NCBI GenBank assembly: GCA_022567305.1
Contig: JADFHF010000015.1
Span: forward strand, 1-64,000
Source of the DNA: Bacteroidota bacterium
Lineage (GTDB): Bacteria; Bacteroidota; Rhodothermia; Rhodothermales; UBA10348
DNA length: 64,000 nt
Direction of reading: 5' to 3'
A program made the translations under genes and the position numbers. The notes below the pieces were generated by a model that saw only the letters and a list, made by a program, of their open reading frames with translations, made no database searches and was not told the DNA's origin. This document shows positions 39,047 through 54,594 of the stretch, one piece after another (the first letter of the stretch is position 1; every line of letters starts with the position of its first letter).

Positions 39047-41227
39047 CTAGAGCGCGTTCAGGATCTGGAGTGCCAGTTTGTTGGAAGGGGCGAATTCGAG
39101 TACCGCCTCCGCTTCTTCTCGGGCGCGAATGAACTGGTCATTTCTGAAATAGGCCAGCGCTAGATTTACCCGTGCCTCCACATATTCTGGAGCAATCTCA
39201 GTGGCTTGGCTGAGGAGCGGGATGGCCAAAGCAAGACTGTCGGCCTGAAGGTAGTGAGCGCCGAGATTTGCGAGAGCAAGCGGGTGGCCAGGTGATACGC
39301 CGACCGCTGTTTTAAATGCCTCGAGCGCATCTCCCAGTCGTTCATTGGTGGCGAATAGAATACCCAGATTTACCCACGCGTCTGGATTCAAGGGGTCGAG
39401 ATCGAGCGCATCTCCCAGCACCTTCTCGGCCGCGTCCGAATCGCCAAGCTGAACCAGCGCCGTCCCCAGATTATAATGGGCTGTCGCAAACCAGGGCTGT
39501 TCGACCAGAGCCATTCGATACTCTCCAACAGCTTCGACGAGACGTCCTCTCGACTCCAGGAATCGACCGTAGTTGATCCGATAATCAGCTCGCGCCGGTT
39601 GAACGGCCAGGGCCCGCTGGTACAGACGTTCAATACGAACCGGATCTCTGGCGCCCGTTTCGTATGCCTGCGCTAACGCATTCAGGCGTTCAGGGATATC
39701 GGATTCTACGATTACGGCTTGTTCAAGCCATGGAATTGCGCTTTCCACGTCTCCGACTCGATGATATCCCAGGCCCAGTTGAAATACGGCCTCGTCGTAA
39801 TCAGACTCGAGGGTCAGCGTTTCTTCGAGCATACCGATGCCCATTCTCATGTAGACATCGTTTAGGTTGCGGGTGCCGTAAACGAGGTATGCCAGTCCTT
39901 CGTAAATCTGATCGTCCAAATCTTGAGCGAATACGGGCAACAGTTTCGGCGGATCACCAATGGAATTTAATTGGACGGGTTCGTCTGGATCAACCACCCG
40001 TATCCAGTGATCCGTGAAATCGGAATGTGCCACTTTAGAGATGCCTGCCTTTGGCATGTGGCACGAAATGCAGTTGGATGATTCCTGATGGTCCGGGAGA
40101 GACGTCGAACCGGCCAGGCGTTCAATCAAGTTTGCTGATTCATGACAGGTGCGACAGGTGCCGTTGAAGTATTCCGGCCCGGCCTGTCGGAATCCAGAAT
40201 GGGGATCGTGACAGGTCACACAGTCCATTGGGTTGCCTAAAGCCAGTGAAGACCGAAAACACTCGCTGGCTTTCATTCTCCCTACATGAGATGTAAGGCC
40301 GATCATTTCGTTGGACGCCGGCTTCTCCATGGCGTAGAGCGACAAGTACTTGGAGAGGTCCTGGGACGGGCGGAAATCATACGGTGTTCTTCCCTCCCTG
40401 AGAATTGAGACCGTCGCATTCAAATGGCACTGCTGGCATACATCCAGCCTCCGCTCGAGGGTCAAGTGCGCCGGGTTAACGATGGAATAATCGACCGAGT
40501 CTGCTTCGGGAAGCGCAAGACGCTCTTCCACGTGAAGCTCACCGGGTCCGTGGCAACGCTCGCAGCTTATACCAAGCGGAAGGTGCTCGTATTTACCTTC
40601 CGTGAACGGAACCTCGGTCGGGTAGGCATTGTGGCAGTTCATGCATCGAGGGACAATTTTTCGATCAAATCGCTTGTTTGCCACCCGGTATCCGGGACTG
40701 AAATCCCACTTCCCCTCCTGGGTATACCAGGAAATCGGAAGCTCGTTGAACCAACCATTGTTCAAGATGAAATAGGAGCGGGCTGAAATGCCGCTTCCTA
40801 TCACATATTGCATCTCGCGGACCTGGCTGTGCGTTTTCTGCCCGTTCTCATCGATCCGAAACTCTTCCTGATAGAATTTGCCGTCCTCTTCAGAGATGGT
40901 ATAGGAATAGCCAAGGGTTGTATCGTGGACGACGGAACCGTCCAGCTTTTCGATTCGGGTGTCGGCGTTCAGGAGATAAAGAGAGTTGGCCATTCCGTGC
41001 TCCTTATAGCCACGGTACTCGGACTCGTGACAATCGAAACAGGCATCATCCCCTACAAATGAAACGCCGTCTACTAGATTTCGGTATGGCGAACGGGGTT
41101 CTTCAGTTGCAGATGTCGTCGCAGCTGGATCTGAACCCGGAGTGCATCCTGATATTAAACCGACACACGACACGACCAGAAATGAAGAAAATAACACCGT
41201 TTGGGCTAATTTCTCCCTCATTGTCAC
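39047..41227 (-). CDS. Heptaheme c-type cytochrome lipoprotein with C-terminal TPR repeats
   Basis: 726 aa with lipobox VVSCVG. Seven CxxCH motifs are present (CFDCH, CMNCH, CERCH, CQQCH, CVTCH, CRTCH, CISCH). The C-terminal 250 aa are TPR-like. Confidence 0.7.
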   Translation of the reverse strand: MTMREKLAQTVLFSSFLVVSCVGLISGCTPGSDPAATTSATEEPRSPYRNLVDGVSFVGDDACFDCHESEYRGYKEHGMANSLYLLNADTRIEKLDGSVVHDTTLGYSYTISEEDGKFYQEEFRIDENGQKTHSQVREMQYVIGSGISARSYFILNNGWFNELPISWYTQEGKWDFSPGYRVANKRFDRKIVPRCMNCHNAYPTEVPFTEGKYEHLPLGISCERCHGPGELHVEERLALPEADSVDYSIVNPAHLTLERRLDVCQQCHLNATVSILREGRTPYDFRPSQDLSKYLSLYAMEKPASNEMIGLTSHVGRMKASECFRSSLALGNPMDCVTCHDPHSGFRQAGPEYFNGTCRTCHESANLIERLAGSTSLPDHQESSNCISCHMPKAGISKVAHSDFTDHWIRVVDPDEPVQLNSIGDPPKLLPVFAQDLDDQIYEGLAYLVYGTRNLNDVYMRMGIGMLEETLTLESDYDEAVFQLGLGYHRVGDVESAIPWLEQAVIVESDIPERLNALAQAYETGARDPVRIERLYQRALAVQPARADYRINYGRFLESRGRLVEAVGEYRMALVEQPWFATAHYNLGTALVQLGDSDAAEKVLGDALDLDPLNPDAWVNLGILFATNERLGDALEAFKTAVGVSPGHPLALANLGAHYLQADSLALAIPLLSQATEIAPEYVEARVNLALAYFRNDQFIRAREEAEAVLEFAPSNKLALQILNAL

Positions 41228-41230: not shown

Positions 41231-41755
41231 GTGGCAGATATTGAGATTCTGTTCGATCTTGGTGAGAGGTTTTTTCGTCGATTTCCTATGTCTGAAACTC
41301 CGTTCCCAGAAGATTCATCGGTTCGATCGAGGGTGCTCGATACGCTCGTACTCATACACCGCTCCGAGCATTTGGTCTCTATTCGACCGGATATGCCGCC
41401 GCAAAATATCGCCTTTGCGTTGTGCAGGCTATGGTTTGACCACATATTTACGCCGAGTATGCGATATCTGGATGGTTGGAAGGGTGACTCCGACCCGGTG
41501 GCCACGGCCGAATTTATAGCTGCGTTCACGGAAGAGGAATATGGATGGCTCGAACGTTTTCATCGATTTCTGGAACTGCGTATCGACCGACTGTCCAAAA
41601 CGCAGATGAAGGAGGGTGTTTTCCCCATCAACGACACTTGGAAGGGCATAACACGCGATGCGGGGAATCTGCTGGATCTCTTGGATCAGGACGGAAGTCG
41701 AAAAACCGACCGGTTGGAGACCGTCATGCGCGCTCTTGTGCCGCCTGGTGAATAG
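41231..41755 (+). CDS. Hypothetical protein
   Basis: 174 aa, the only plus-strand gene inside the large minus-strand array. The true start may be the internal MSETPF. Confidence 0.3.
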   Translation: MADIEILFDLGERFFRRFPMSETPFPEDSSVRSRVLDTLVLIHRSEHLVSIRPDMPPQNIAFALCRLWFDHIFTPSMRYLDGWKGDSDPVATAEFIAAFTEEEYGWLERFHRFLELRIDRLSKTQMKEGVFPINDTWKGITRDAGNLLDLLDQDGSRKTDRLETVMRALVPPGE

Positions 41756-41784: not shown

Positions 41785-42354
41785 CTAGAAACCGAACTTT
41801 TCTCGAACGATTTTCAACATGTCTTCGTCGACTATCGTAGCATCGTTCGCTTTTGCATAGTCTTCGATGCCTCGTTCAACCATCGGCCGAATGAAAGAAG
41901 GAATGCGGTCCATTCGCTCTTCAGCTTCTGGCGTCCAATGCAGGCCTTGAAGGCTCCCGTTGGATTCGGTCGACCCCTCAGGGTCTGTGGAATCTGCGAA
42001 ATCTGTGGCATCTTCGGGGCCGGCAACCATGGCCGAGAACGGACAGCCGCCCGATGAATTTTCCTTTGCGGATAAGGCGGTGGATGACTTGGTGGATGAT
42101 TCGATGTCAGCATGGGCTCCCTGATGACCGATCAGCGAAGAGCTTATCGTTTCCATCGGCGGGGCCTCTTCCGTCGCACCGCCAATTTTCACGCCCAGCG
42201 AGTGCACCATCTGGGTTTCCATGGAATTTGTGAGCATCGCGATCTCGCGGCCACAAGTTCCACATCCAAACACGACCGTTAACGATCCATTGTCGGGTCC
42301 AGAGGTACTCTTTAAAGCCATCGGCTCGTCGCAGTCCACACAAAGAAATTTCAT
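41785..42354 (-). CDS. Zn-ribbon (CxxC...CxxC) + PCP_red-like (BchB C-terminal-like) domain protein
   Basis: 189 aa. N-terminal CVDCDEPM...CGTCGREI. The C-terminal LHWTPEAEERMDRIPSFIRPMVERGIEDYAKANDATIVDEDML closely matches the ChlB/BchB C-terminal consensus WTxEAE...IPFFVRGK...IT.E.L. Confidence 0.5.
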   Translation of the reverse strand: MKFLCVDCDEPMALKSTSGPDNGSLTVVFGCGTCGREIAMLTNSMETQMVHSLGVKIGGATEEAPPMETISSSLIGHQGAHADIESSTKSSTALSAKENSSGGCPFSAMVAGPEDATDFADSTDPEGSTESNGSLQGLHWTPEAEERMDRIPSFIRPMVERGIEDYAKANDATIVDEDMLKIVREKFGF

Positions 42355-43343
42355 GTTGCTTCCTTTACTGTTACTTCCTTCACAGGTCCGTTCTCCACAG
42401 TTGCAGTCTCTATAGTCGCCTTCTCTACGTTCGCGACCCCCACAACGGTCGCTGTTCGTTTAGATTTTCCCAGAAGATTGCATAATTCTAGAGCGGTGGC
42501 TCGAAGAGCACCTGCAGCAGGTCGATCCGGGTACATGGTCAAATACGGATTTCCACTGTCGGTTTCCTCGCCGAGTCTGGGGTCGAATGGTATTCTTCCA
42601 AGTAGCTGCACACCGTCCTCGCTCAGCAATTCGTTTGAACCGGGATCCTGAAACAGGTGATGAACGGTGTCACACGCGTCACAGACAAATTCCGTCATGT
42701 TCTCCACCAGCCCGATGGGTCGGTCGTCCACGTGACGCCGCGCAAGCAAAATCGATTTTCGGACCACATAGGTTGAAGCTCTCGAAGGCACACTGACGAC
42801 GACTGCACATGACAGTGTAGGAACCAGGTCCAGCAGATTGGGAAGTCGGTCTGTTCCGGGGGGCAAGTCTACGAGGAGAATGTCCAGACCATCCCAGACG
42901 GTATCCGCTAGCATTTCTCTTATGGCAGCTACTTCAACCATACCGCGCCACGTGAATGCGCTGCGCTGCGTTTCCGCTTCCCATTCTACCGGAATACCCT
43001 CCTTCAGAAACAAGTCGATCGACATGACCTGGACTCCACCATGCGATACGGAAGGAGCAATTCCATCGTCGGTCCGCTCAGGGTTTCGGGCAACGCCGGT
43101 CATTTTTACGACTGACGCTCCATTGATATCCGCATCAACGATGCCTACTCGCCAACCGGTCTCGGTAAGTGCGGTCGCCAGGTTCACCGTCAACAAACTT
43201 TTCCCAACGCCACCTTTTCCACTCATCACCGCGACCACATAGTCAATCTGATCCAGACGGTGGCGCAGTTTCCGTTCCTGTTCCTGGACCTGCCCCGCGA
43301 CGTTGGAGCCACCGTCAGTAAGAATGTCGTGATAGGTCTTCAA
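42351..43343 (-). CDS. apbC: Mrp/NBP35-family ATPase (Fe-S cluster carrier, ApbC-like)
   Basis: 330 aa with deviant Walker A VMSGKGGVGKS and a C-terminal Cys pair CDACD. Confidence 0.75.
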   Translation of the reverse strand: MKTYHDILTDGGSNVAGQVQEQERKLRHRLDQIDYVVAVMSGKGGVGKSLLTVNLATALTETGWRVGIVDADINGASVVKMTGVARNPERTDDGIAPSVSHGGVQVMSIDLFLKEGIPVEWEAETQRSAFTWRGMVEVAAIREMLADTVWDGLDILLVDLPPGTDRLPNLLDLVPTLSCAVVVSVPSRASTYVVRKSILLARRHVDDRPIGLVENMTEFVCDACDTVHHLFQDPGSNELLSEDGVQLLGRIPFDPRLGEETDSGNPYLTMYPDRPAAGALRATALELCNLLGKSKRTATVVGVANVEKATIETATVENGPVKEVTVKEAT

Positions 43344-43361
43344 CGATTTGCTGGTACCGTA

Positions 43362-45305
43362 CTACTCTTGTTTCCCGTTCTTCTTGCCGTTCTGCTTTTT
43401 GATCATGTCCTCCATCACTTTCATGCCCACCTTGATGCCTTCCTCTACGATTTCGAGATCGATCAAATCTGACTTCCTGGATGCGGCACCCGTTTCAATT
43501 CTCTTTTTGGTAGCGGTTCGCATAAATCCCTCCGGGACTCGATTGAGCCGCTCGACTGCGGCCGGCGTCCAGGAATACTTACCGTCTCGAATGTTCTGCG
43601 CTCGGCTCTTTACGTCGGGCTGTGGTCCATCGACGGCGCGCTGACCCAGTTTCCCTCGATCTTCGAGGTTTTCTGTAGCGGCTTCCGTTTTTCCAACCAC
43701 ATCTTCAACCATGTCTTTCGTAATCAGGAATATTTTCCGGACGCGAGCGCGCTTTTCAATCTGTGCCTTTGCTCGACGCCGCTTATATCCGTCCGAAAGA
43801 GTTTTTACCAGCATCCGAGCATCGTCCGTCCATTTGATCTTGACGTTGTCGAAGGCCTTTTCTTCGTGAATGGCGCCTTCCAGCGGCGCGAGTTTCTCAA
43901 TCGCGTCCCGGTCCAACTTCTGGATCTGATCCGGCGGGGCATTACAAACCGTGCATTTAGTGGGCTCGAAGCCGCGCCCAACCCAGCCGCACTTCTGACA
44001 GACATAGACCGACGTGTTCTCCTCTCCGATTTTTTTGGTGGCAAGGTCTTCCGAAATGATACCCATAGCCTTCATCGACGACTTGGGAAGAATGGTCGAA
44101 AGAGCGCCTTCCAAAACAGATGTGGTGATGACGGAGTGTCCACGCTCCATCGCCCATCGATGCACAATGGTGCGGGCAATTCCTTTCGCGAAATCAGGGG
44201 CCTTGTCGAGTATCCGCTGCGCCTCTTCTACCCAGATCATAGATTCCTCAGCCTTGACGTCCACGTCCGGTGAAAATCTCTTGCTCGATAGAAGGACATT
44301 GCAGGGGACCAGGCGAAGCAAATTTTCTGTGTTACTTCCGACGTCCATCGATTCATCGCTATGAACACCGATCCGGCCCATCACGAGCATCCAGGGCCGC
44401 TCGCGCCGGACGTATTCCAGAATTTTCTCAAACGCCTTGCCGTCCAAGAGTGTGATCTTGAGATCGACATCCTCGTCTGCAGCGATACGCCGGGATACTT
44501 CCAGGTGCGACTGGTAGATTTTGGCGAGGCCCGTATCGATGACGTCCTCGTGGAGCTGCTCTTGCTCTTCGAACTTGAATACCTTGGACGCCTTTTCCGT
44601 GAGAACACCCACCAGGCTGTTGAACATCGCGTAATGGAGGTACGGATCGTAAACCGAAATTGCCTCTACCGGTTTATCGAGCGCCTTACCGAGCTTGATG
44701 GCGGATTTCAGTCCTGCGTAGGCTTCCGGGCTTCCGTCGATAGCAACGACAATCCCACCGCCGTCCTTATGCTGAACACCGTTTGAACCGGTCGACAACT
44801 GATCTTCAATCGGCGCCGTATTTTTGATAACGATCGTGTCGGTGCGCGTTCGTCGGACCACCCGCTCGCACACGCTCCCGATCTGGCTATCGCGTACAGC
44901 CCCGAGACCCAGAGCGCCCATGATGACCAGGTCGTAATCGTTACTGTTTATGTCGTCTGCGATGACCTCAAAATTCTTTCCGTCGTACAACTTCGGTTCA
45001 AACTGGAGATTGGCTTCGACCGCCTGCTTATGCATGACCGTCAAGTAAGAATCAGAAATCAGCTCTAGACCCATCGTAATGAGTGAATCATGGATCTTGC
45101 GCTGCTTCTCCATCTCCGCTTCGACCAGGTATTCCTCGGGGAGAGTGAATTCCATCTGCTTGAATCGGTAGTCGTGAAGCCGGGCAGCATAGGCGTGGCT
45201 CCCCACGAGGGTCGCGCCAAACTGGCCCGCTAGATGAACGGCAAGTTCAATGGAGGCTCTGGAGTGGTCAGAATTGTCAACGGGGACAAATATTTTCTCG
45301 TACAT
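43362..45305 (-). CDS. Multidomain protein: two universal-stress-protein (UspA) domains + PCP_red-like domain + rubredoxin-like Zn ribbon + two further PCP_red-like domains
   Basis: 647 aa. The USP-like halves contain IFVPVDNSDHSRASIELAV...VIMGALG and GIVVAIDGSPEA...LVMGRIG. The PCP_red-like segments are WVEEAQRILDKAPDFAKGIARTIVHRWAMERGHSVITTSV, KIKWTDDARMLVKTLSDGYKRRRAKAQIEKRARVRKIFLITKDMVED and KYSWTPAAVERLNRVPEGFMRTATKKRIE. The Zn ribbon is CQKCGW...CTVC. Confidence 0.55.
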   Translation of the reverse strand: MYEKIFVPVDNSDHSRASIELAVHLAGQFGATLVGSHAYAARLHDYRFKQMEFTLPEEYLVEAEMEKQRKIHDSLITMGLELISDSYLTVMHKQAVEANLQFEPKLYDGKNFEVIADDINSNDYDLVIMGALGLGAVRDSQIGSVCERVVRRTRTDTIVIKNTAPIEDQLSTGSNGVQHKDGGGIVVAIDGSPEAYAGLKSAIKLGKALDKPVEAISVYDPYLHYAMFNSLVGVLTEKASKVFKFEEQEQLHEDVIDTGLAKIYQSHLEVSRRIAADEDVDLKITLLDGKAFEKILEYVRRERPWMLVMGRIGVHSDESMDVGSNTENLLRLVPCNVLLSSKRFSPDVDVKAEESMIWVEEAQRILDKAPDFAKGIARTIVHRWAMERGHSVITTSVLEGALSTILPKSSMKAMGIISEDLATKKIGEENTSVYVCQKCGWVGRGFEPTKCTVCNAPPDQIQKLDRDAIEKLAPLEGAIHEEKAFDNVKIKWTDDARMLVKTLSDGYKRRRAKAQIEKRARVRKIFLITKDMVEDVVGKTEAATENLEDRGKLGQRAVDGPQPDVKSRAQNIRDGKYSWTPAAVERLNRVPEGFMRTATKKRIETGAASRKSDLIDLEIVEEGIKVGMKVMEDMIKKQNGKKNGKQE

Positions 45306-45341
45306 AGTGGAATTTTAAGGTGGAATGTCTCTGTTCGGCTG

Positions 45342-45719
45342 TCACCGTAGCCGCTTCATCTGGGCAAGAATATAACCGAGGCGGTCGGCAACATATACCA
45401 TGGTGTCCCGGGTTGTTTCCGTAGTCTCTGAATCGGGAAATGACAGACAAACAATGGCCGCATCCAGGTGCTCGAAGCTCCGCGCATCCACGTCTCGATT
45501 CAGCTCGTCATGAAATAACGACAGGTGGTGACGCACGGTCACGAGCGTTGTATGGATATCGGATCCGGGTTCGATGTCATGAAGCATGTCGCCCAAACGT
45601 GAGATTTCAAGCTGTACGATGGCCGGTCCCATTTGAACAAATTCGTCGCGCTCGATAAAGTGAATCTCGTTCAGTCTTTCGTATCGCCTGGACCTGGTAT
45701 GCTGCACGGGTGATGTCAT
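45342..45719 (-). CDS. Hypothetical protein (His/Glu-rich, possibly hemerythrin-like; weak)
   Basis: 125-aa ORF 1 nt downstream of the 198-aa ORF. HHLSLFHDELNRD and HDIEPGSDIH are faintly reminiscent of HHE cation-binding motifs. Confidence 0.3.
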   Translation of the reverse strand: MTSPVQHTRSRRYERLNEIHFIERDEFVQMGPAIVQLEISRLGDMLHDIEPGSDIHTTLVTVRHHLSLFHDELNRDVDARSFEHLDAAIVCLSFPDSETTETTRDTMVYVADRLGYILAQMKRLR

Positions 45720-45720
45720 G

Positions 45721-46317
45721 TCAACTCACCGCTATACCGACTGCGACGTGTGACTGTCGATTCTCCCACATCTGCCAGAGGCTGCCCATACGGCGTCTGA
45801 ACTCGGCTGGATCCTGCTGGATGGTGTCGAACGAGAACTCAGGAAGCAAGAGCTCCAACCGTTCGATCATTTCGTCTTCTAGAATCCACCCATGCTCTAA
45901 ATAGTCCAGTACAACCTTATAGTCGAGTTCCCCGCCGCGTGCCACGCAACGATAGCTAACCGAATACGGGTCGAAGTGAAGCACGACGAGTGGGAGATCG
46001 AATGGCCAATGGGCATCGGCCACGGCTCGATGTCTCGCCGCATAACCATCGGGCAAAGGAATCACTTCTCCTGGAAATTCATCCGAAACTTTAATACCCA
46101 TTTGACCCGCCACCTGGACCACCGCCCGATTGAAGGGATTTCGATCCACTAAATCCACGGATGAGCAGAATTCAAGTCGATCCGTAAACCTGCGCAAACC
46201 CTCCACGACGAGCGAGGTCTCCCCCACCAGATAGATCGTTCCAGATCCTGAAAAGACGGCACCAATCTCGCGAAAGAAACGAACGATCATCGCTTGATTG
46301 ATCAGTTGAATCGCCAT
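45721..46317 (-). CDS. Hypothetical protein
   Basis: 198-aa ORF 4 nt downstream of the ferredoxin gene. No confident family was recognised. Confidence 0.3.
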   Translation of the reverse strand: MAIQLINQAMIVRFFREIGAVFSGSGTIYLVGETSLVVEGLRRFTDRLEFCSSVDLVDRNPFNRAVVQVAGQMGIKVSDEFPGEVIPLPDGYAARHRAVADAHWPFDLPLVVLHFDPYSVSYRCVARGGELDYKVVLDYLEHGWILEDEMIERLELLLPEFSFDTIQQDPAEFRRRMGSLWQMWENRQSHVAVGIAVS

Positions 46318-46321
46318 GGCT

Positions 46322-46615
46322 TTATTCGAGTGACTTGTTCACTAGTTCGTTCTCGATGTCTTCCGGTGCAGCGTCTTCCGGTACATGGTCGTTCAATACA
46401 TGGTCGTTCAGTACATCGTCGCTCGGTACATCGTCGTTCGGTACATCGTCCTCATGCACGATCGCGTCTTCGGGACACACGGCGACGCATTCCTGAAACT
46501 CGCAACAGGTATCATCGATGACATAGATGGGATCTCCCACGCTGATGGCTTCGATCGGACATTCGTCCAGACAGAGTCCGCACGTATTACAGGTATCGAG
46601 GATGACGTAGGCCAT
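46322..46615 (-). CDS. 2x[4Fe-4S] ferredoxin with C-terminal acidic pentapeptide-repeat tail
   Basis: 97 aa with CNTCGLCLDECP and CCEFQECVAVCP. The tail DDVPNDDVPSDDVLNDHVLNDHVPED is encoded by a 15-bp tandem DNA repeat. Confidence 0.7.
   Translation of the reverse strand: MAYVILDTCNTCGLCLDECPIEAISVGDPIYVIDDTCCEFQECVAVCPEDAIVHEDDVPNDDVPSDDVLNDHVLNDHVPEDAAPEDIENELVNKSLE
46378..46455. repeat. 15-bp tandem repeat x about 5 (catggtcgttcaata-like units) inside the ferredoxin gene
   Basis: Units catggtcgttcaata / catggtcgttcagta / catcgtcgctcggta / catcgtcgttcggta / catcgtcctcatgca are visible directly. They stay in frame, encoding a 5-aa period. Confidence 0.6.
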
Positions 46616-46655
46616 AGTTCGAAACGCACAAAAAGTGCAGAAAGTGCGACGTCAG

Positions 46656-47462
46656 CTAGGCTTTGTGGTCGATCTGCCCCTTCCCCTCGTTAACGGTGTT
46701 GTCACTCCGCTTTCCCGGATACCGTCTTATCGGTGTTTTATTCTTGAAACCGTTTACCCAGAAGCAATACGCATACGGGTACATGGTCTGGACGACATGA
46801 AACGGTTCGTACTCAAATAGTCTACGCATGGCCCACGCAAATCGATATCTGAGATCTTCTGGAGTTATGATCTCCACGATACAATCCACTTGGTAACTAA
46901 AAAACACGGGCGAGTTGCCTGTCCAGAGAACCGATGCCATCGGATTTTCCTTCAGGTTATTGAAGGTCGTACCCTCAAAAATTTCCAGGAGCGCCAGGCG
47001 TCGCCAGTCAAGGTGATCCGGGTTCGAATAGATTTCTCTCGCCGTATTGACGCGTAACGACCGAGTTTCGTGAACGGCGTGGGGAGGCAGTTTTTCTATT
47101 TCCGAGACCGCGCTCTCAACCAGGTTCAGGTAGTGTTCCAGGTATTCATTGCGAGGCGTAAATCCAATTCCCTTGTTGGCGAGATTGAGGAAGTGTCCGT
47201 CAGCGGACCATGTTCCGACAACCGGCAGGTGGCCGACGTTAAATGCGATATACTCATTTTTTTCGATGGAATCGTATATACTGTGCTTCATATCCAGTTG
47301 CCAGCGAACGAATTCATCGGGGAGCTCCTGGATCTGAAAATCCTGCGATACACCATCCGTATGGACGCTTACCGTGTTTCCATCAATGGTCACGCGATCC
47401 AATAATTCTTGACCGTTGGTGGTTGAAACGTCTGCTGCGACTACGTCGATTGATTCTGCCAT
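46656..47462 (-). CDS. Hypothetical protein
   Basis: 268-aa ORF between the radical SAM and ferredoxin genes. No family was recognised. Confidence 0.35.
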   Translation of the reverse strand: MAESIDVVAADVSTTNGQELLDRVTIDGNTVSVHTDGVSQDFQIQELPDEFVRWQLDMKHSIYDSIEKNEYIAFNVGHLPVVGTWSADGHFLNLANKGIGFTPRNEYLEHYLNLVESAVSEIEKLPPHAVHETRSLRVNTAREIYSNPDHLDWRRLALLEIFEGTTFNNLKENPMASVLWTGNSPVFFSYQVDCIVEIITPEDLRYRFAWAMRRLFEYEPFHVVQTMYPYAYCFWVNGFKNKTPIRRYPGKRSDNTVNEGKGQIDHKA

Positions 47463-47502
47463 GGTTGTTTTTCTGCTTCGGAAACTGAATGATTCTGCGA
47501 AA

Positions 47503-48756
47503 TTATGATTTGCTCGGTGGTGTTTTGAATAGACTCGCGCCTACCATCTGCCCAAATCCACTTCTTTTACTGCCAGCCATAGCCCGATCCATATCGTCTG
47601 ACGTGATTACTCGGAGGCCATGTCTCGCACCATAGGCCCTCAATCCTTTCTTGACCTTACTGCGGATGAACTCAATGGGGATCCTCTCCATTCGATGGAG
47701 AACGGGATCCGAGAATATAATCTCGGATGATTCGGGAAGCGTAATTTTTCCGGGCTGATACGTACACGCCGGATCTTCGGCCAGGTAATCGCCTTCGGCT
47801 GAAAAGGCTCTACAACGACATCCGCCACAAAGCTCCTTGAACTCACAGGCGCCACAGCGTCCTTTCAAGAGAGACAAATCCCTAAGCTCTGTGAATACGT
47901 GTGACGAATTCCAGATCTGCGTAAACCCTTCGTCGCGCACATTCCCGGCTACCACATCCATATACGGGCACGGCGTTACGTTCCCTTCCGGTGTAATTCG
48001 GCAATATTCTGTGGCTGCCATGCACCCACCACTTTCCAGGCCTCCTTTGCCCATTTCGTAAGAGATCTGCTTAAACTGCGGGGCGCATTTGGCGCGGACG
48101 AGCATGGGCGCATAGTCTTCCTGGGATTCGACCAGTTGCCTCAGGCAATCCTCGGTCTCCTGGGGTGTGAGATCGTTCATTTCAAGCCCCCTTCCCGTGC
48201 GCACCAGGAAGTACAGGTTAAACGACCAGGCATCACGGTCCTTCGCAAATTGGATGAGGTCGCCGATTTCGTCCATATTCTCGCGGGTAACGGTCGACTG
48301 GACCAGCACTTCCATTCCGTGCTCCCTGCAGATCTCGAGGGCGCGAACGGAATACTTCCACGCATCCGGGCCTCCACGGAATGCGTTGTGGGTCTCCGGG
48401 TCGACCGAATCGATACTGATCCCCACTCCCTTGACTCCGCACTCCACCATTTTGGCGGCTACGTGTTCGTTCACGAGTACGCCGTTGGTTCCCATCACGA
48501 CCCAGATGCCTTTCGACGAGGCACATGATGCGATATCGTAAATATCTCGGCGGAGAAGCGGTTCGCCGCCGGTCAGGATCAGCATCTCCGTGCCCAGCGA
48601 ATGCATCTCATCTACCAGGCGAAGACACTCGTCGGTGGTTAGTTCATCCTCAGCGCTGTCTCCGGCATCCAGATAGCAGTGCGGACACGCCAGATTACAT
48701 TTCTTGGTGAGATTCCACGAAACGAGCGAGGGGCGGTATGTCTGCAGCGTTTCGAT
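47503..48756 (-). CDS. Radical SAM / SPASM-domain enzyme with C-terminal PCP_red-like domain; no canonical start codon upstream of the CxxxCxxC motif
   Basis: The ORF-track version starts at ATG 48606 (MHSLGTEMLILTGGEPLL). The same frame stays open 58 codons upstream and contains the radical-SAM cluster motif CNLACPHCY. SPASM Cys motifs read CGACEFKELCGGCRCRA. The C-terminal PVLHRMERIPIEFIRSKVKKGLRAYGARHGLRVITSDDMDRA is PCP_red-like. The only start candidate is ATC, overlapping the upstream gene's TAA (TAATC). Confidence 0.6.
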   Translation of the reverse strand: METLQTYRPSLVSWNLTKKCNLACPHCYLDAGDSAEDELTTDECLRLVDEMHSLGTEMLILTGGEPLLRRDIYDIASCASSKGIWVVMGTNGVLVNEHVAAKMVECGVKGVGISIDSVDPETHNAFRGGPDAWKYSVRALEICREHGMEVLVQSTVTRENMDEIGDLIQFAKDRDAWSFNLYFLVRTGRGLEMNDLTPQETEDCLRQLVESQEDYAPMLVRAKCAPQFKQISYEMGKGGLESGGCMAATEYCRITPEGNVTPCPYMDVVAGNVRDEGFTQIWNSSHVFTELRDLSLLKGRCGACEFKELCGGCRCRAFSAEGDYLAEDPACTYQPGKITLPESSEIIFSDPVLHRMERIPIEFIRSKVKKGLRAYGARHGLRVITSDDMDRAMAGSKRSGFGQMVGASLFKTPPSKS

Positions 48757-50297
48757 TACGCTTCTTCTCCACGCTTGTCGTCAGAAGATGCTCTTGCGCC
48801 ATGAACTTTTTTCCGGGTAACAAACGTGACGACGAGCCCCAGAAGCAGTGTGGCAAATCCGTATGCCATCATGGGTAGGACAGGAGACTCTTTTACGGCA
48901 ACATCCATATACAGGTAAGCCCAACTGGTAAGACCTCGTTTGTTACCTCTTTCTCTGCTGAATCCGTCCCATATCGAAAAGGCGATCGGTACGAACGTTC
49001 CTTCTTCAAAAGCAATGTGGGCCTCCTCATTTCGGGCGCGTCGGAAGATGACCGTCCACTCGCCTTCCTGGAATGACGCCGAGACATCCAGTTCAGGACC
49101 CTCTTCGCTCATATTCGAAGCGCCCTTGCCGACGTAGTGCCTGGCCCCTGATCCAGCAAGATCCGCAAACCAGATGTCTGTACTCAGTTTTCGATCCCCG
49201 AAGATGAAATAGGGCATCTCGGTACCCGCCGAAAGAACGGTCGGAAACTGAATGGCGACGGCATCTGAAAACACCAGCGTTGAGTCCGAATCAGCATCCA
49301 AGGCCCCTGGTGCAATGAGATCGGGTGCATTTGATCCGCTCGTTTCGGCGGCCATGTCGTGCCACTGAAGCATGATGGAGATATGTTCATCGTTGTAAAC
49401 CGCCCGTACGTCGACTCCATTGACTCCTGGGAAGAATGCTCGTCCCGGCTCGATAATCTGTCCTACCACCGGGAAATAGGCCGGCTCGATATCTGCGAAA
49501 GATTCTTGGGAGAGATCCATCGTCCTGGTGGTCGCATGCGCCGTTACCATCGTTGCATAATTTGGCTCGTCCCGAGAGAGAGAATAGACGTAATCGACCA
49601 GCGCCCACTGATCTTCCGTCGGTGAGATTTCGAATGACGGCATGGGTGAGCCGTCGAGTCCAGTCGTAAAGGTCTGGTAAATATCCTCACGGGTTCCTCC
49701 CCCCCGGAATGTCCAGCGCTTCGTCATGTCAGCTGCCCGGATTGGATACCCCCACCGATCTTCCAGCGTGGGCGCAGATGGCCCGTCTCCCAGCCCCCGG
49801 TTTCCGTGGCAGTCAGAACATTGATTCGTTTCGTACACCTCGCGTCCACGGGCTATGGATTCATCCGTCATTGAAGGCGGACTAGGCATTTCGAGCGCGG
49901 TGACCTCTCCAAACGGGCCCGAAAAATCAGATGAAAACGTTTTGATGTGGTACATCAGATTGGTCACATCCGCATTCGAGAGCGACGGCCACGGCGGCAT
50001 GGCCGTATATGGCATGCCGTTCCGAATGCTGTTCCTGATATCCTCATCGGTTGGCAGTTCCCCACTGGCGGTCGTCCGAAACTTAAACGTACCGGTCGTG
50101 AAGTTTCGTGGGGCAGGACGAAAGACAGAGGCAACTGTCGGGCGAGGCACACCGTCTGACCCATGGCAATGGGCACATTTTGCTTCGTAAACGACCCGTC
50201 CCGCTTCACGTTGCTCGTCGGTTCCCAGATCGACATTCTGCGCAGCGACGCTGAAAACCGGAATAACCAAGGCCATCATGCAAGCCAGAATTCTCAT
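48756..50297 (-). CDS. Membrane-anchored dihaem c-type cytochrome (CcoP-like tandem class-I domains) with a 250-aa extra domain and C-terminal TM
   Basis: 513 aa with signal peptide, CAHCHG and CSDCHG haem motifs, and the TAMPPWP motif. A C-terminal hydrophobic helix reads LPMMAYGFATLLLGLVVTFV. Confidence 0.65.
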   Translation of the reverse strand: MRILACMMALVIPVFSVAAQNVDLGTDEQREAGRVVYEAKCAHCHGSDGVPRPTVASVFRPAPRNFTTGTFKFRTTASGELPTDEDIRNSIRNGMPYTAMPPWPSLSNADVTNLMYHIKTFSSDFSGPFGEVTALEMPSPPSMTDESIARGREVYETNQCSDCHGNRGLGDGPSAPTLEDRWGYPIRAADMTKRWTFRGGGTREDIYQTFTTGLDGSPMPSFEISPTEDQWALVDYVYSLSRDEPNYATMVTAHATTRTMDLSQESFADIEPAYFPVVGQIIEPGRAFFPGVNGVDVRAVYNDEHISIMLQWHDMAAETSGSNAPDLIAPGALDADSDSTLVFSDAVAIQFPTVLSAGTEMPYFIFGDRKLSTDIWFADLAGSGARHYVGKGASNMSEEGPELDVSASFQEGEWTVIFRRARNEEAHIAFEEGTFVPIAFSIWDGFSRERGNKRGLTSWAYLYMDVAVKESPVLPMMAYGFATLLLGLVVTFVTRKKVHGARASSDDKRGEEA

Positions 50298-51106
50298 TCG
50301 TGTACCTCCTTCGCCCTTGGCCTCTGATCCGTGAAGTCGTACATAAACAAAATGACATCCCAGATATCTTCCTCAGAGAGAAATGTCTCCCAGGCCGGCA
50401 TGGCCGACGACCACGGAGTGGACTCTACAGGAAGCCCGGGGGCTCCCTTCGCAATTCGCCAAAACAGGTACGACTCCTGGAGCATCGCAATGGTGGTCGG
50501 ATCCTGGAAATTGGCCGGAATGGGGTTAAAGCCGCGTGCAAACAGGCCGTCGCCTACCATATTGTCGCCGTGACATTTTACACAGTTCTGGTAGTACACG
50601 AGTCGACCGTTGCTCACATGTTCGGCAAACGCAGTCGGATCACTCGTTTCCAACTCTCGATACGGGTTGTCCTCATCAACCAGGTCGACCTGCCGGCCCT
50701 TAAATGTGATCGTAGCCGGTGGCGGCGGGTGGATCGTGCGTCCGACGACCGGCGGATCCGGCAGCTGAGTCAGGTTCTGATACACGCGAAATGCCACGAT
50801 AAACGGCAGGCCAATCAGGGCGACTACGAGCGGAATCGTATACTTTTTGTCCGTAAAAAAGCTGACGAAAGCGTTGGATACTTCCTTCAGACGATCTTCG
50901 GTCGTTGTCAGATAGACCGCCAACGACAACGTAATAATGAACATAAACATCGTCAGGACCGAGGCGGGAACGGGCGGAACGACACCGTATCTCAAGAAAA
51001 CGTAGACGGCTACCCACGTCGCAGACGACCAGGCCAGCGAGTTGGGTTTCAGAAATCGGAGGGCGATCAGTCCTGCGGCGATCGCCAGAAGTACGACGAT
51101 ATTCAC
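50294..51106 (-). CDS. Monohaem c-type cytochrome with N-terminal 3-4 TM anchor
   Basis: 270 aa with CVKCHG and a C-terminal class-I cytochrome c fold (SSAMPAWETFLSEEDIWDVILFMYD). Confidence 0.6.
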   Translation of the reverse strand: MNIVVLLAIAAGLIALRFLKPNSLAWSSATWVAVYVFLRYGVVPPVPASVLTMFMFIITLSLAVYLTTTEDRLKEVSNAFVSFFTDKKYTIPLVVALIGLPFIVAFRVYQNLTQLPDPPVVGRTIHPPPPATITFKGRQVDLVDEDNPYRELETSDPTAFAEHVSNGRLVYYQNCVKCHGDNMVGDGLFARGFNPIPANFQDPTTIAMLQESYLFWRIAKGAPGLPVESTPWSSAMPAWETFLSEEDIWDVILFMYDFTDQRPRAKEVHE

Positions 51107-51916
51107 CTAGTTACCCTGTTGATCTGCGAGATAGTTGACGAGCGCCCGAAGCTCCTCAGGAGACACCTTTTGATAGAATCCGAGGGCATTTAACGTGGTC
51201 AGCATGACACCGCCCGGAAATCCTTCTGCCAGTGTAGCATCGGGCTCCATCACCGCCTCATAGATTTCCGCCTTGGAAAGCCTGGATCCAACGTCAAATA
51301 AACTGGGACCCACCAATGGGTCGGGTGAATCTATGGAGTGGCACGTGTTACACAAGTACGTCGTAAAAACGCCCGGCCCGTCTAGACCGGCGCCGAGGGT
51401 AGCTCCTCCGGAAGGAGCCGGAGCAATCGCTGAGACTTCAGTTACGTATCCCACATCGGTGGCGAGCGTCACGGAAGGCGTCCCTCCCAGGCTTTGGAGG
51501 TAGGCGATGACTGCTTTGATCTCGTCGTCAGTCAATCCAATAGGAGGCCGGTTTATGGCCGGCATTCCCGCAAGAAAGCCATCCACAATGAACTCATTGG
51601 GCTCATAAAGAGAGTGAGCCAGGTATTCCAACGCTGACATCCCGGCAATTCGGGTCGAGGCTTTGGTAGCGATTCCTCCCAGGTCTGGGAAGCGAAGGCC
51701 CGAATCTCGTGATCCTACCGTATGGCATCCGAGGCAAGTACCTTTCCCCGCGACAATGTCCGCTCCGGCAATCGCGAGTTCATCAGGCGTCATGTCCGCA
51801 GAGAGGTCTGCGGACTCAGGTGGATACGTAATTTTCTGAGGTACGGTATTGCCTACATAGCTGTAAAAAGCCAGCACGACGATCACGAATCCGAATATTT
51901 TCAATGAAGATTTCAT
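51107..51916 (-). CDS. Dihaem c-type cytochrome, N-terminal TM anchor
   Basis: 269 aa with CLGCHT and CNTCHS. Confidence 0.6.
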   Translation of the reverse strand: MKSSLKIFGFVIVVLAFYSYVGNTVPQKITYPPESADLSADMTPDELAIAGADIVAGKGTCLGCHTVGSRDSGLRFPDLGGIATKASTRIAGMSALEYLAHSLYEPNEFIVDGFLAGMPAINRPPIGLTDDEIKAVIAYLQSLGGTPSVTLATDVGYVTEVSAIAPAPSGGATLGAGLDGPGVFTTYLCNTCHSIDSPDPLVGPSLFDVGSRLSKAEIYEAVMEPDATLAEGFPGGVMLTTLNALGFYQKVSPEELRALVNYLADQQGN

Positions 51917-54575: not shown

Positions 54576-54594
54576 GATTGTCGAAAGCTAGATG

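What the first reader, a model, noticed from the sequence alone, without database searches (positions are those of the whole stretch)
41785..48756. Five PCP_red (BchB C-terminal-like) domains distributed over three proteins, next to Mrp/NBP35, ferredoxin and radical SAM
Segments matching the ChlB/BchB C-terminal consensus (WTxEAE..L..IPFFVRGK...IT.E.L) occur five times: once at the C-terminus of the radical-SAM/SPASM protein, once in the 189-aa Zn-ribbon protein, and three times in the 647-aa USP-USP-ZnRibbon protein. This domain normally belongs to nitrogenase-like protochlorophyllide reductases. Here no NifH/D/K-like partners are present, and the neighbours are instead Fe-S and redox maturation-type proteins. 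The domain may act as a docking or recruitment module that tethers the radical-SAM enzyme, the USP protein and the small Zn-ribbon protein into a complex. That would make this a candidate uncharacterised cofactor- or protein-modification system serving the adjacent respiratory proteins.
Basis: partly seen in the sequence, partly recalled or inferred. Interest (0 to 1): 0.75.

Follow-up and report, generated by a model that had tools for sequence, protein, structure and literature searches.

The report
PCP_red-tethered haem-enzyme module beside oxidases
A conserved and apparently undescribed set of cytoplasmic genes sits next to respiratory oxidase genes in hundreds of bacterial species and probably makes or delivers their haem; it comprises an AhbD-like radical-SAM haem enzyme, a double 'universal stress protein' scaffold, an iron-sulfur-cluster ATPase and a small zinc-ribbon protein, and three of these (not the ATPase) carry a small helical domain otherwise known from chlorophyll enzymes.

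Summary
Five PCP_red (PF08369) domains lie at the stated places. Three pass Pfam's cut-off. The other two are sub-threshold alone, but profile-profile comparison shows they are homologous (92.8-99.7% probability; control below 0.4%). They are also conserved in orthologues.

The genes form a conserved module. Relatives of the USP protein were found in at least 584 species-level genomes across about ten phyla. The core is a tandem-USP/rubredoxin-like/PCP_red x3 protein, an Mrp/NBP35 ATPase, a Zn-ribbon/CPF/PCP_red protein and a radical-SAM/SPASM/PCP_red enzyme. Frequent extras are p125, p174, p268, a ferredoxin and p198.

In 42 of 45 loci with full flanks the module lies within 10 kb of an A-type haem-copper oxidase and/or a bd-like oxidase with a cytochrome c/EB_dh operon.

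The radical-SAM enzyme is AhbD/NirJ2-like and has the exact AhbD auxiliary-cluster motif, but it scores below the equivalog cut-offs. p268 is a split-barrel (flavin- or haem-binding) protein, and it is fused to the USP protein in five independent protein clusters.

Best reading (inferred): PCP_red tethers a cytoplasmic haem-synthesising or haem-tailoring complex that serves the neighbouring oxidases.

An alternative haem A synthase role and a DPOR remnant are rejected.

The function remains untested, and no literature on the module was found.

The parts
47503..48756 (-). Radical-SAM/SPASM enzyme, AhbD/NirJ2-like, 417 aa, with a C-terminal PCP_red domain. CX3CX2C at C20/C24/C27. Auxiliary motif C301X2C304X5C310X2C313X17C331. 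Probable ATC start at 48756.
   Evidence: Pfam Radical_SAM and SPASM. NCBIfam NirJ2 340 bits and AhbD 312 bits, both below the 500 cut-off. Translation and start codon. Motif compared with PMC10114771.
47578..47700 (-). PCP_red domain of the radical-SAM enzyme (residues ~353-393).
   Evidence: Pfam 20.4 bits, sub-threshold. Family HMM. hhalign 95.8-99.7% probability against the other four classes. PF08369 is precomputed on the orthologues.
46656..47462 (-). p268: orphan, highly conserved protein with a split beta-barrel (PNPOx-like) fold, binding flavin or haem. Accessory member of the module.
46322..46615 (-). Small dicluster-type 4Fe-4S ferredoxin. Accessory member.
   Evidence: Pfam Fer4 families and NCBIfam FdxA_fam 54.7 bits. 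Present in 26 of 45 full loci.
45721..46317 (-). p198: conserved protein of unknown function. Accessory member that travels with p268.
   Evidence: No family hit. No PDB relative by profile search. Present in 17 of 45 full loci.
45342..45719 (-). p125: small soluble protein encoded directly upstream of the USP gene. It has no conserved Cys or His.
   Evidence: No family or PDB hit. Present in 34 of 45 full loci. Not detectable in NC10, Rokubacteria or TA06 loci.
43362..45305 (-). 647-aa hub protein: USP (res 1-161), USP (~185-340), PCP_red 1, rubredoxin-like Zn ribbon (C436, C439, C451, C454), PCP_red 2, PCP_red 3.
   Evidence: Pfam Usp x2 127.7 bits and PCP_red. 72% mean column identity across phyla. 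Both G-x2-G-x9-G-S nucleotide motifs and all four ribbon Cys are invariant or nearly so. 295 representative clusters at E<=1e-30.
44094..44243 (-). PCP_red domain 1 of the USP protein (res ~355-404).
   Evidence: Pfam 38.7 bits. hhalign.
43698..43835 (-). PCP_red domain 2 of the USP protein (res ~491-536).
   Evidence: Pfam 19.0 bits, sub-threshold. hhalign 92.8-98.3% probability against the other classes.
43428..43577 (-). PCP_red domain 3 of the USP protein (res ~577-626).
   Evidence: Pfam 40.4 bits. hhalign.
42351..43343 (-). Mrp/NBP35-type P-loop ATPase with a conserved CxxC (bridging Fe-S cluster motif) and a family-specific N-terminal peptide, KTYHDIxGDGGSNVxGQV.
   Evidence: PF10609 212.8 bits. 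MrpORP 214 bits, below the 450 cut-off. Cfd1 and archaeal Mrp structures at E 1e-36. Conservation.
41785..42354 (-). 189-aa protein: Zn ribbon (2 x CxxC), conserved [K/G]CPF[T/S]G motif, PCP_red. Its start overlaps the Mrp stop by 4 nt.
   Evidence: Pfam PCP_red 47 bits. 2kru and 2ynm_D hits. CPF conserved: C 60/64, P 63/64, F 60/64. Two CxxC in 60/64. Median Mrp-to-small-protein gap is -4 nt.
41797..41946 (-). PCP_red domain of the small protein (res ~137-186).
   Evidence: Pfam 50.6 bits.
41231..41755 (+). p174: convergently transcribed all-alpha protein, conserved next to the module.
48756..53811 (-). Context: bd-like (CydA-like, no CxxCH) oxidase subunit 51913..53811; two cytochromes c 51107..51916 and 50294..51106; di-haem cytochrome c with EB_dh domain 48756..50297. 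All lie directly upstream in the same orientation with overlapping or abutting stops and starts.
   Evidence: Pfam. TM segments and CxxCH counts. The cyt c/EB_dh gene is in 40 of 45 full loci and the bd-like gene in 35 of 45.
53814..58880 (-). Context: A-type haem-copper oxidase genes COX2 (53814..54575), COX4 (55053..55370), COX3 (55374..55991) and COX1 (56004..57791); lipoprotein with a cupredoxin-like motif plus a CarboxypepD_reg domain (57930..58880).
   Evidence: Pfam. Alignment motif PHV...HN.H...KCDVHPWM. COX1 in 30 of 45 full loci and the cupredoxin/CarbReg gene in 33 of 45.

Best explanation
This is a cytoplasmic multi-protein module for haem cofactor supply to terminal oxidases.

Catalytic core: an AhbD-type radical-SAM/SPASM enzyme that acts on the side chains of an iron tetrapyrrole. 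The most likely reaction is coproheme to haem b. A further haem tailoring is less likely.

Supporting parts:
- The Mrp/NBP35 ATPase builds or repairs the enzyme's oxygen-labile Fe-S clusters.
- The ferredoxin, the two rubredoxin-like Zn-ribbon domains and the split-barrel protein p268 carry electrons to and from it, or hold the tetrapyrrole.
- The ATP-binding tandem-USP protein is the hub.
- The PCP_red domains are small three-helix units on flexible linkers: one on the enzyme, one on the small Zn-ribbon/CPF protein and three on the hub. They are the tethers that hold the parts together.
- The product goes to the haem-copper oxidase and the bd-like/cytochrome c/EB_dh oxidase encoded alongside.

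Shown: domain identities, homology of the five PCP_red domains, conservation and synteny of the module, the AhbD-type cluster motifs, the p268 fold, the p268-USP fusions, and cytoplasmic location.

Inferred: the substrate, the direction of electron and cluster flow, that PCP_red is a protein-docking unit, and that the oxidases are the clients.
For: 1. The radical-SAM enzyme's best families are NirJ2 (340 bits) and AhbD (312 bits). All close relatives modify iron-tetrapyrrole side chains. Its auxiliary motif, C301X2C304X5C310X2C313X17C331, equals the AhbD motif CX2CX5CX2CX17C. NirJ and AhbC have CX2CX5CX20-21C.

2. At least 584 genomes encode a relative of the USP protein. In 45 loci with at least 8 kb on both flanks, the radical-SAM gene is present in 43, Mrp in 44, the small PCP_red protein in 41, cyt c/EB_dh in 40, bd-like in 35 and COX1 in 30. 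COX1 or bd-like is present in 42.

3. In the window, genes from COX2 to the small protein follow each other with -4 to +40 nt between them. The radical-SAM start overlaps the stop of the cyt c/EB_dh gene.

4. In NC10, TA06 and Rokubacteria loci the module abuts the oxidase assembly genes CtaA, CtaB and DUF420. CopD-like, DoxX, UbiA and DUF420 genes are the other recurrent neighbours.

5. PCP_red copy number varies from 1 to 6, and the domain lies on either side of the USP pair. This is the behaviour of a tethered adaptor.

6. p268 is fused to the USP protein in five representative clusters, in both orders. The two therefore work together.

7. Mrp has an invariant CxxC and matches Cfd1/Mrp structures at E 1e-36. 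Its stop overlaps the small protein's start (median gap -4 nt).

8. No module protein has a TM segment.

9. Precedents from the literature: AhbD needs both an electron donor and an acceptor. HemW, a protein with a radical-SAM fold, inserts haem into a respiratory enzyme (PMC10114771). AhbD-like enzymes are proposed for the last step of the coproporphyrin pathway (PMC7242693).
Against: - The radical-SAM enzyme scores well below the AhbD and NirJ2 equivalog cut-offs (312 and 340 against 500). It may have a different substrate.
- No haem b biosynthesis gene (ferrochelatase, CgoX, ChdC, AhbA-C) recurs in the flanks.
- Whole genomes could not be checked for ChdC or HemN.
- No partner of PCP_red is demonstrated. 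In DPOR the role of this domain is itself unclear.
- Some loci with full flanks lack a nearby radical-SAM gene, for example Entotheonella L063 and NC10 L068. One locus, L062, has a five-PCP_red USP protein but no Mrp or small protein within 10 kb.
- p268's ligand is undecided between flavin and haem.
- Most hosts are aerobes, where an oxygen-sensitive haem synthase is unexpected.
Confidence: 0.4

Rival explanations
1. Haem relay. PCP_red domains, together with the CPF motif of the small protein, bind the tetrapyrrole themselves. The five domains would then form a chain of haem or coproheme carriers. These would pass substrate to the radical-SAM enzyme and product to the oxidases, rather than acting as protein-protein tethers.
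For: - In DPOR the C-terminal part of BchB covers the protochlorophyllide cavity (PMC4071322).
- PCP_red is otherwise tied to tetrapyrrole enzymes.
- The small protein has a highly conserved Lys/Gly-Cys-Pro-Phe motif (C 60/64, P 63/64). It resembles Cys-Pro haem regulatory motifs; this resemblance rests on my own knowledge, not on a test.
- p268's fold family includes the haem binders HupZ, HutZ and ChuZ.
- An HmuY haem-binding protein lies near the module in Entotheonella locus L063.
Against: - The alignments of the PCP_red regions show no obvious conserved His, Cys, Met or Tyr that could ligate haem iron. This was not counted column by column.
- The helix said to cap the substrate in BchB probably lies upstream of the PF08369 region (ChlB Leu426 against a domain start near 475).
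- The Rokubacteria variant of the small protein lacks the CPF motif and the Zn ribbon, yet keeps 3-4 PCP_red repeats.
Confidence: 0.2
2. Regulatory stress module. The ATP-binding tandem-USP protein, together with an oxygen- or NO-sensitive Fe-S ATPase (Mrp), senses energy or redox state and controls assembly or activity of the neighbouring oxidases. The radical-SAM enzyme would be a separate co-located biosynthetic gene.
For: - Both USP domains keep the G-x2-G-x9-G-S nucleotide motif.
- USP-Mrp-small protein occur without a nearby radical-SAM gene in some loci: L063, L068, L070 and L083.
- USP-USP-only relatives exist.
Against: - The radical-SAM gene is within 10 kb in 43 of 45 full loci, and it shares the PCP_red domain with the other two proteins.
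- The p268 fusions point to a catalytic or redox partner, not a signalling output.
- No DNA-binding, kinase or other output domain was seen.
- The very high conservation (72% mean column identity) is more typical of a multi-partner structural or enzymatic core.
Confidence: 0.12
3. Protein or peptide maturase. The SPASM radical-SAM enzyme modifies a protein substrate, such as an oxidase subunit or the small p125 protein. PCP_red would act like an RRE/PqqD-type recognition element.
For: - SPASM enzymes are often peptide maturases. PqqE and SkfB are the closest solved structures.
- A small conserved ORF, p125, lies in the operon.
Against: - The best-scoring families are all tetrapyrrole enzymes, far above the peptide maturases (340 bits against 172 or less).
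- The auxiliary motif is AhbD's.
- p125 has no conserved Cys, Ser, Thr or Tyr core and is absent from NC10 and Rokubacteria loci that keep the enzyme.
Confidence: 0.08
4. Oxygen-independent alternative haem A synthase. The radical-SAM enzyme would replace CtaA/Cox15 for the adjacent haem-copper oxidase.
For: No CtaA was seen in the window or in the first loci examined.
Against: CtaA (PF02628) and CtaB lie in the same clusters, next to the module, in NC10 L068 and TA06 L083. Rokubacteria L075 has a 598-aa protein whose C-terminal part is CtaB (UbiA); its N-terminal part has no Pfam match and may be CtaA.
Confidence: 0.02
5. Remnant or divergent nitrogenase-like (DPOR/COR-type) tetrapyrrole reductase.
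For: The BchB-type C-terminal domain is present. Mrp gives weak P-loop-only hits to BchL, NifH and CfbC.
Against: No Oxidored_nitro, BchN/B or NifD/K core occurs anywhere in the window or the loci. The ATPase is a clear Mrp/NBP35 member (213 bits, against 20 bits for Fer4_NifH over the P-loop only).
Confidence: 0.01

Closest known systems
AhbD (haem b synthase; TIGR04545) and NirJ2 (TIGR04055): radical-SAM enzymes of the alternative haem and haem d1 pathways
   Same: - Radical-SAM core with CX3CX2C.
- SPASM-type C-terminal cluster region with the exact AhbD motif CX2CX5CX2CX17C.
- These are the best-scoring families over the full length of residues 11-335.
   Different: - Scores are 312 and 340 bits against trusted cut-offs of 500.
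- It has an extra C-terminal PCP_red domain.
- It is not encoded with AhbA/B/C or nir genes, but with USP, Mrp and oxidase genes.
- The hosts are mostly aerobes.
C-terminal domain of BchB/ChlB of dark-operative protochlorophyllide reductase (PF08369; PDB 2kru, 2ynm_D; stand-alone Asr4154, 2l09)
   Same: Same small helical domain by sequence (E 1.7e-4 to 5e-3 against PDB chains; Pfam up to 50.6 bits).
   Different: - There is no nitrogenase-like catalytic core and no chlorophyll pathway.
- The domain is multiplied (five copies here, one to six in relatives).
- It is attached to USP, Zn-ribbon and radical-SAM proteins.
Mrp/NBP35/ApbC Fe-S carrier ATPases, including NUBPL/Ind1, the assembly factor of respiratory complex I
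   Same: - P-loop GKGGVGKS and CxxC cluster motif.
- PF10609 at 213 bits.
- Cfd1 and Mrp structures at E 1e-36.
- A role in maturation of a respiratory system has a precedent in Ind1 (established knowledge).
   Different: - It lacks the DUF59 domain and the MrpORP C-terminal domain.
- It has a family-specific conserved N-terminal peptide.
- It is always paired with a PCP_red protein.
- The neighbouring oxidases themselves contain no Fe-S clusters.
HemW, a haem chaperone with a radical-SAM fold that serves respiratory enzymes
   Same: It is a functional analogue only: a cytoplasmic protein related to a haem-biosynthetic radical-SAM enzyme that delivers haem to a membrane respiratory complex (PMC10114771).
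   Different: HemW is CgdH/HemN-like, not AhbD-like. It has no PCP_red, USP or Mrp partners.
Tandem universal stress proteins of the ATP-binding UspFG/MJ0577 type
   Same: Two Usp domains, each with the G-x2-G-x9-G-S motif.
   Different: - It carries a rubredoxin-like ribbon and three PCP_red domains.
- It is fused to the split-barrel p268 in some lineages.
- It is exceptionally conserved (72% mean column identity across phyla).

Membership tests
PCP_red (PF08369) | Match to the Pfam HMM at or above the gathering score (32.5 bits). | tested here: met
   Met for three domains: 50.6, 40.4 and 38.7 bits. The other two score 19.0 and 20.4 bits. Those two are joined to the family by hhalign at 92.8-99.7% probability and by precomputed PF08369 hits on orthologues.
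DPOR/COR nitrogenase-like reductase | BchN/BchB (or Y/Z) Oxidored_nitro catalytic core plus a BchL/BchX Fe protein. | tested here: not met
   No Oxidored_nitro protein occurs in the window or the loci. The only hits to BchL, NifH and CfbC cover the P-loop of the Mrp protein, at E 4e-4 to 2e-3.
AhbD haem b synthase (TIGR04545) | Radical-SAM CX3CX2C motif. | tested here: met
   C20NLAC24PHC27.
AhbD haem b synthase (TIGR04545) | Auxiliary cluster motif CX2CX5CX2CX17C. | tested here: met
   C301, C304, C310, C313 and C331 with exactly this spacing. Motif taken from PMC10114771.
AhbD haem b synthase (TIGR04545) | Equivalog HMM score at or above the trusted cut-off (500 bits). | tested here: not met
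   312.3 bits.
AhbD haem b synthase (TIGR04545) | Converts coproheme to haem b. | not testable with these tools
   This needs an enzyme assay.
AhbD haem b synthase (TIGR04545) | Genomic association with AhbA/B/C or with coproporphyrin-pathway genes. | tested here: inconclusive
   None recur within 10 kb in 81 loci. Whole genomes could not be searched.
NirJ (TIGR04051), haem d1 pathway | Equivalog score at or above 515 bits, and a nirS/nirDLGHFN context. | tested here: not met
   216.9 bits. No nir genes were found among the neighbours that were annotated.
Mrp/NBP35/ApbC Fe-S carrier | PF10609 match, deviant Walker A GKGGVGKS, and C-terminal CxxC. | tested here: met
   212.8 bits against a cut-off of 27.1. 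CxxC is conserved in at least 95% of 68 orthologues.
MrpORP (NF041136) | Equivalog score at or above 450 bits, including the C-terminal extra domain. | tested here: not met
   214 bits. Only profile positions 1-261 of 365 are matched.
Universal stress protein, ATP-binding type | PF00582 match and the G-x2-G-x9-G-(S/T) motif. | tested here: met
   127.7 bits in two stretches. G130/G133/G143/S144 and G310/G313/G323/S324 are invariant or at least 90% conserved. Nucleotide binding itself was not tested.
PNPOx-like split-barrel proteins (for p268) | Split beta-barrel fold. | tested here: met

The most novel reading that the evidence does not exclude
PCP_red would be a general docking domain for SIMIBI-class Fe-S ATPases: BchL/BchX in chlorophyll reductases and this Mrp here. 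On that reading the module is an ATP-dependent machine. Mrp, the USP hub, the rubredoxin-like domains, the ferredoxin and p268 would keep an oxygen-sensitive radical-SAM haem enzyme supplied with clusters and low-potential electrons inside aerobic cells. The enzyme would make not ordinary haem b but a tailored haem needed by the uncharacterised OR-N-type bd-like/cytochrome c/EB_dh oxidases.
Probability: 0.12. Interest if true: 0.85.

Novelty: new variant of a known kind. Interest (0 to 1): 0.62.

Why it matters
If the reading is right, a large group of environmentally abundant bacteria builds or fits the haem of its terminal oxidases with a dedicated machine that nobody has studied. The group includes Rhodothermales, Calditrichia, Latescibacterota, Marinimicrobia, NC10/Methylomirabilota, Rokubacteria and Entotheonella.

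It would give a first function to several things:
- the PCP_red domain outside photosynthesis, and a testable idea for its unexplained role in DPOR;
- a very highly conserved tandem-USP family;
- four orphan protein families (p125, p174, p198, p268).

It would also open a route into the biogenesis of the bd-like (OR-N) oxidases, whose cofactors and function are unknown. Finally, it bears on how oxygen-sensitive radical-SAM chemistry is sustained in aerobes.

Tried and rejected
1. Alternative haem A synthase: rejected. CtaA and CtaB sit beside the module in NC10 and TA06 loci, and CtaB at least in a Rokubacteria locus.

2. DPOR/nitrogenase remnant: rejected. There is no catalytic core.

3. Resemblance of the Mrp N-terminal peptide (DGGSNVxGQV) to the BchL cluster-capping tail DGEGSVQVH (PMC7948495): a PDB sequence search with the peptide found only Mrp P-loops and no BchL. 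I keep it only as an unverified visual lead.

4. Profile searches of p268, p198, p125 and p174 against PDB sequences: nothing significant.

6. p268 fold: it cannot separate flavin binders from haem binders.

7. Profile searches for p125, p174, p198 and p268 in NC10, Rokubacteria, TA06 and Entotheonella loci: none found.

8. Promoter and terminator scan: counts equal the shuffled expectation, so it is uninformative.

9. Literature searches for PCP_red, PF08369, 'bd-like + radical SAM + universal stress protein', Methylomirabilis and the Pfam product name: no paper on this module.

10. The role of the BchB C-terminal domain in DPOR could not be settled from the papers held. PMC2930732 is not held.

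The afdb50 fold library was unavailable.

Full report
**Observation**

The region holds eight co-directional genes on the minus strand plus one convergent gene. Pfam confirms the following:
- Radical_SAM and SPASM in the 47503..48756 gene
- two Usp domains and PCP_red in the 647-aa protein
- PF10609 (Mrp/NBP35) at 213 bits
- a small 4Fe-4S ferredoxin
- PCP_red in the 189-aa protein

I scanned the five claimed segments separately against PF08369, whose gathering score is 32.5 bits:

| Segment | Bits |
|---|---|
| small protein | 50.6 |
| USP protein, domain 1 | 38.7 |
| USP protein, domain 2 | 19.0 |
| USP protein, domain 3 | 40.4 |
| radical-SAM C-terminus | 20.4 |

The two sub-threshold segments are nevertheless genuine.
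- An HMM built only from the three strong window domains detects a C-terminal domain in almost all radical-SAM ORFs in the related loci. It detects three domains in most USP orthologues, 80 of 83 after iteration.
- hhalign between orthologue alignments of the five classes gives 92.8-99.7% probability for all ten pairs. An unrelated helical family used as control gives below 0.4%.
- The small protein's domain also aligns to the solved BchB/ChlB C-terminal domains 2kru and 2ynm_D.

No nitrogenase-like protein is present in the window.

The radical-SAM ORF has no canonical start before its CX3CX2C motif. ATC at 48756 overlaps the TAA of the upstream gene and aligns with the TTG start of close orthologues.

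**What the genes are**

*The radical-SAM enzyme.* It scores best against NirJ2 (340 bits) and AhbD (312 bits). TIGR04053, NirJ, NirJ1 and AhbC follow, and peptide maturases come far behind. It is below the 500-bit equivalog cut-offs. Its C-terminal cysteines, C301X2C304X5C310X2C313X17C331, reproduce the AhbD auxiliary-cluster motif CX2CX5CX2CX17C. They do not reproduce the NirJ/AhbC motif (PMC10114771).

*The ATPase.* It is a clear Mrp/NBP35 member. Cfd1 and archaeal Mrp structures match at about E 1e-36. It has an invariant CxxC and a family-specific conserved N-terminal peptide.

*The 647-aa protein.* It is remarkably conserved, at 72% mean column identity across phyla. Both USP nucleotide motifs and the four cysteines of a rubredoxin-like ribbon are conserved.

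*The small protein.* It has a Zn ribbon and a [K/G]CPF[T/S]G motif (C 60/64, P 63/64, F 60/64), followed by PCP_red.

*The four proteins with no family assignment*.
- p174 is a helical bundle with no informative match.
- p198 and p125 gave no hits.

None of the module proteins has a TM segment.

**Conservation and context**

The USP protein has homologues at 62-82% identity among the best 120 listed. The taxa were Rhodothermales, Calditrichia, Latescibacterota, Krumholzibacteriia, Marinimicrobia, NC10/Methylomirabilota, Rokubacteria, Entotheonella, TA06, Ktedonobacterales and others.

I searched ORFs of 83 loci with the window's proteins. In the 45 loci with at least 8 kb on both sides of the USP gene, the counts were:

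| Gene | Loci (of 45) |
|---|---|
| Mrp | 44 |
| radical SAM | 43 |
| small PCP_red protein | 41 |
| cyt c/EB_dh | 40 |
| bd-like subunit | 35 |
| p125 | 34 |
| cupredoxin/CarboxypepD_reg lipoprotein | 33 |
| p174 | 30 |
| COX1 | 30 |
| ferredoxin | 26 |
| p268 | 17 |
| p198 | 17 |

COX1 or the bd-like gene is present in 42 of the 45. The median distance from the Mrp stop to the small protein's start is -4 nt.

In the window, the genes from COX2 through the bd-like operon to the small protein are separated by -4 to +40 nt. They look like one transcription unit. The promoter and terminator scan was uninformative.

p125, p174, p198 and p268 are not detectable in NC10, Rokubacteria, TA06 or Entotheonella loci. 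The universal core is therefore USP, Mrp, the small PCP_red protein and the radical-SAM/PCP_red enzyme.

Clustering of the unassigned neighbours showed recurrent CopD-like, DoxX, UbiA (CtaB) and DUF420 genes, plus several recurrent families with no Pfam match. No haem b biosynthesis genes recurred.

In NC10 L068 and TA06 L083, CtaA and CtaB lie directly beside the module. Rokubacteria L075 has a 598-aa protein with a C-terminal CtaB (UbiA) part, and DUF420 is adjacent in L068 and L075. This removes my early idea that the radical-SAM enzyme replaces haem A synthase.

**Architecture variation and fusions**

An exhaustive phmmer search of 1.84 billion representatives gave 295 clusters at E<=1e-30. 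Their architectures range widely:
- USP-USP alone
- USP-USP plus one PCP_red
- proteins with up to six PCP_red repeats
- proteins with PCP_red N-terminal to the USP pair

Locus L062 has a USP protein with five PCP_red domains. Rokubacteria replace the small protein with a protein of 3-4 PCP_red repeats that lacks the ribbon and the CPF motif.

Five representative clusters fuse a p268 domain to the tandem USP. P0270, P0301 and P0319 carry it at the N-terminus. P0277 and P0356 carry it at the C-terminus. BLASTP gives 37-40% identity at E 2e-50 and 2e-54. Fusions in both orders are strong evidence that p268 and the USP protein act together. No fusions with Mrp, p125, p174 or p198 were seen.

**Mechanism (inferred)**

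All close relatives of the enzyme cut or decarboxylate side chains of iron tetrapyrroles. Its cluster motif is AhbD's. AhbD chemistry needs a reductant for SAM cleavage and an acceptor for the substrate-derived electron (PMC10114771). AhbD-like enzymes are proposed for the last step of the coproporphyrin pathway (PMC7242693; PMC10114771).

The module supplies what such an enzyme would need:
- an Fe-S cluster carrier (Mrp)
- small redox proteins (the ferredoxin and two rubredoxin-like ribbons)
- a flavin- or haem-binding barrel (p268)
- a nucleotide-binding hub (USP)

PCP_red is shared by three proteins. It is multiplied, variable in number and apparently linker-separated. I therefore read it most simply as the tether that assembles these parts.

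The persistent position among oxidase structural and assembly genes points to the oxidases as clients. HemW is a precedent for a protein with a radical-SAM fold that hands haem to a respiratory enzyme. I give this reading a confidence of 0.4.

**Rival readings**
- PCP_red and the CPF motif bind the tetrapyrrole themselves, forming a haem relay (0.2).
- The genes form a USP-centred regulatory module (0.12).
- The enzyme is a protein maturase (0.08).
- An alternative haem A synthase and a DPOR remnant are both essentially excluded.

**Comparison with known systems and novelty**

Each component belongs to a known superfamily. The radical-SAM enzyme fails the AhbD, NirJ and NirJ2 equivalog thresholds. 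The Mrp protein fails the MrpORP threshold. The combination of USP, Mrp, PCP_red and an AhbD-like enzyme is not covered by any curated family. I found it in no paper.

The neighbouring bd-like subunit lacks CxxCH motifs and lies in an operon with cytochromes c. This fits the 'OR-N' type of Murali et al. (bioRxiv 10.1101/2021.01.16.426971), whose cofactors and function are unknown.

I rate the finding a new variant of a known kind: a tetrapyrrole radical-SAM enzyme with an unprecedented accessory apparatus. It is of moderately high interest.

**Limits**
- No binding, activity or genetic data exist.
- Whole genomes could not be profiled.
- No model of a PCP_red-containing protein was made.
- The role of PF08369 in DPOR could not be established from the papers available.

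Noticed in passing
window 48754..48783: The radical-SAM gene has no ATG, GTG or TTG between the in-frame stop (48781..48783) and its CX3CX2C motif. ATC at 48756 overlaps the TAA of the cytochrome c/EB_dh gene (TAATC) and aligns with the TTG start of orthologues in L007 and L010. This suggests a rare ATC start or tight translational coupling.
   Followed up: partly
window 43275..43343 (Mrp residues 1-23): The Mrp-like ATPase has a strongly conserved N-terminal peptide, (M)KTYHDIxGDGGSNVxGQVxEQ, that is absent from solved Mrp homologues. By eye it resembles the cluster-capping N-terminal tail DGEGSVQVH of BchL. A PDB sequence search did not support the resemblance.
   Followed up: partly
window 46677..46739 (p268 residues 242-262): p268 ends in a nearly invariant but low-confidence (probably disordered) tail, K-T-P-x-R-R-Y-P-G-K-R-S-D-N-T-V-N-E-G. 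It could be a short linear docking motif.
   Followed up: no
window 57930..58880: The gene upstream of COX1 encodes a lipoprotein with a cupredoxin-like copper-site pattern (PHV...HN.H...KCDVHPWM) followed by a CarboxypepD_reg domain. It is probably a blue-copper electron donor. It accompanies the oxidase in 33 of 45 loci, and a paralogue sits directly upstream of the USP gene in Rokubacteria.
   Followed up: partly
window 39047..41227: This gene encodes a 726-aa lipoprotein-like multihaem cytochrome c (7 CxxCH) fused to a long TPR region. It diverges from p174. Weak relatives recur near the module in three distant loci (L062, L068, L070).
   Followed up: no
L075:13647-14936, L077:14041-15282, L078:14866-15897: In Rokubacteria the small Zn-ribbon/CPF protein is replaced by a protein with 3-4 PCP_red repeats and no ribbon or CPF motif. 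The gene order changes to USP, radical SAM, PCP_red protein, Mrp.
   Followed up: partly
L062:9977-12643 and L062:18462-19697: A Latescibacterota variant has an 888-aa USP protein with five PCP_red domains. No Mrp or small protein lies within 10 kb. A second radical-SAM paralogue without PCP_red is present.
   Followed up: partly
L063:14101-14778: In Candidatus Entotheonella the USP-Mrp-small protein trio lies near an HmuY-family (haem-binding) protein. No oxidase or radical-SAM gene lies within 10 kb.
   Followed up: no
L001:6684-7844: In Rhodocaloribacter litoris an IS605 OrfB/TnpB-type (Cas12f-like) transposon gene is inserted between the cytochrome c/EB_dh gene and the radical-SAM gene. 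This breaks the otherwise tight junction.
   Followed up: no
window 58836..60504: Two DoxX-family membrane protein genes flank the oxidase cluster. DoxX genes recur next to the module in 15 loci.
   Followed up: no
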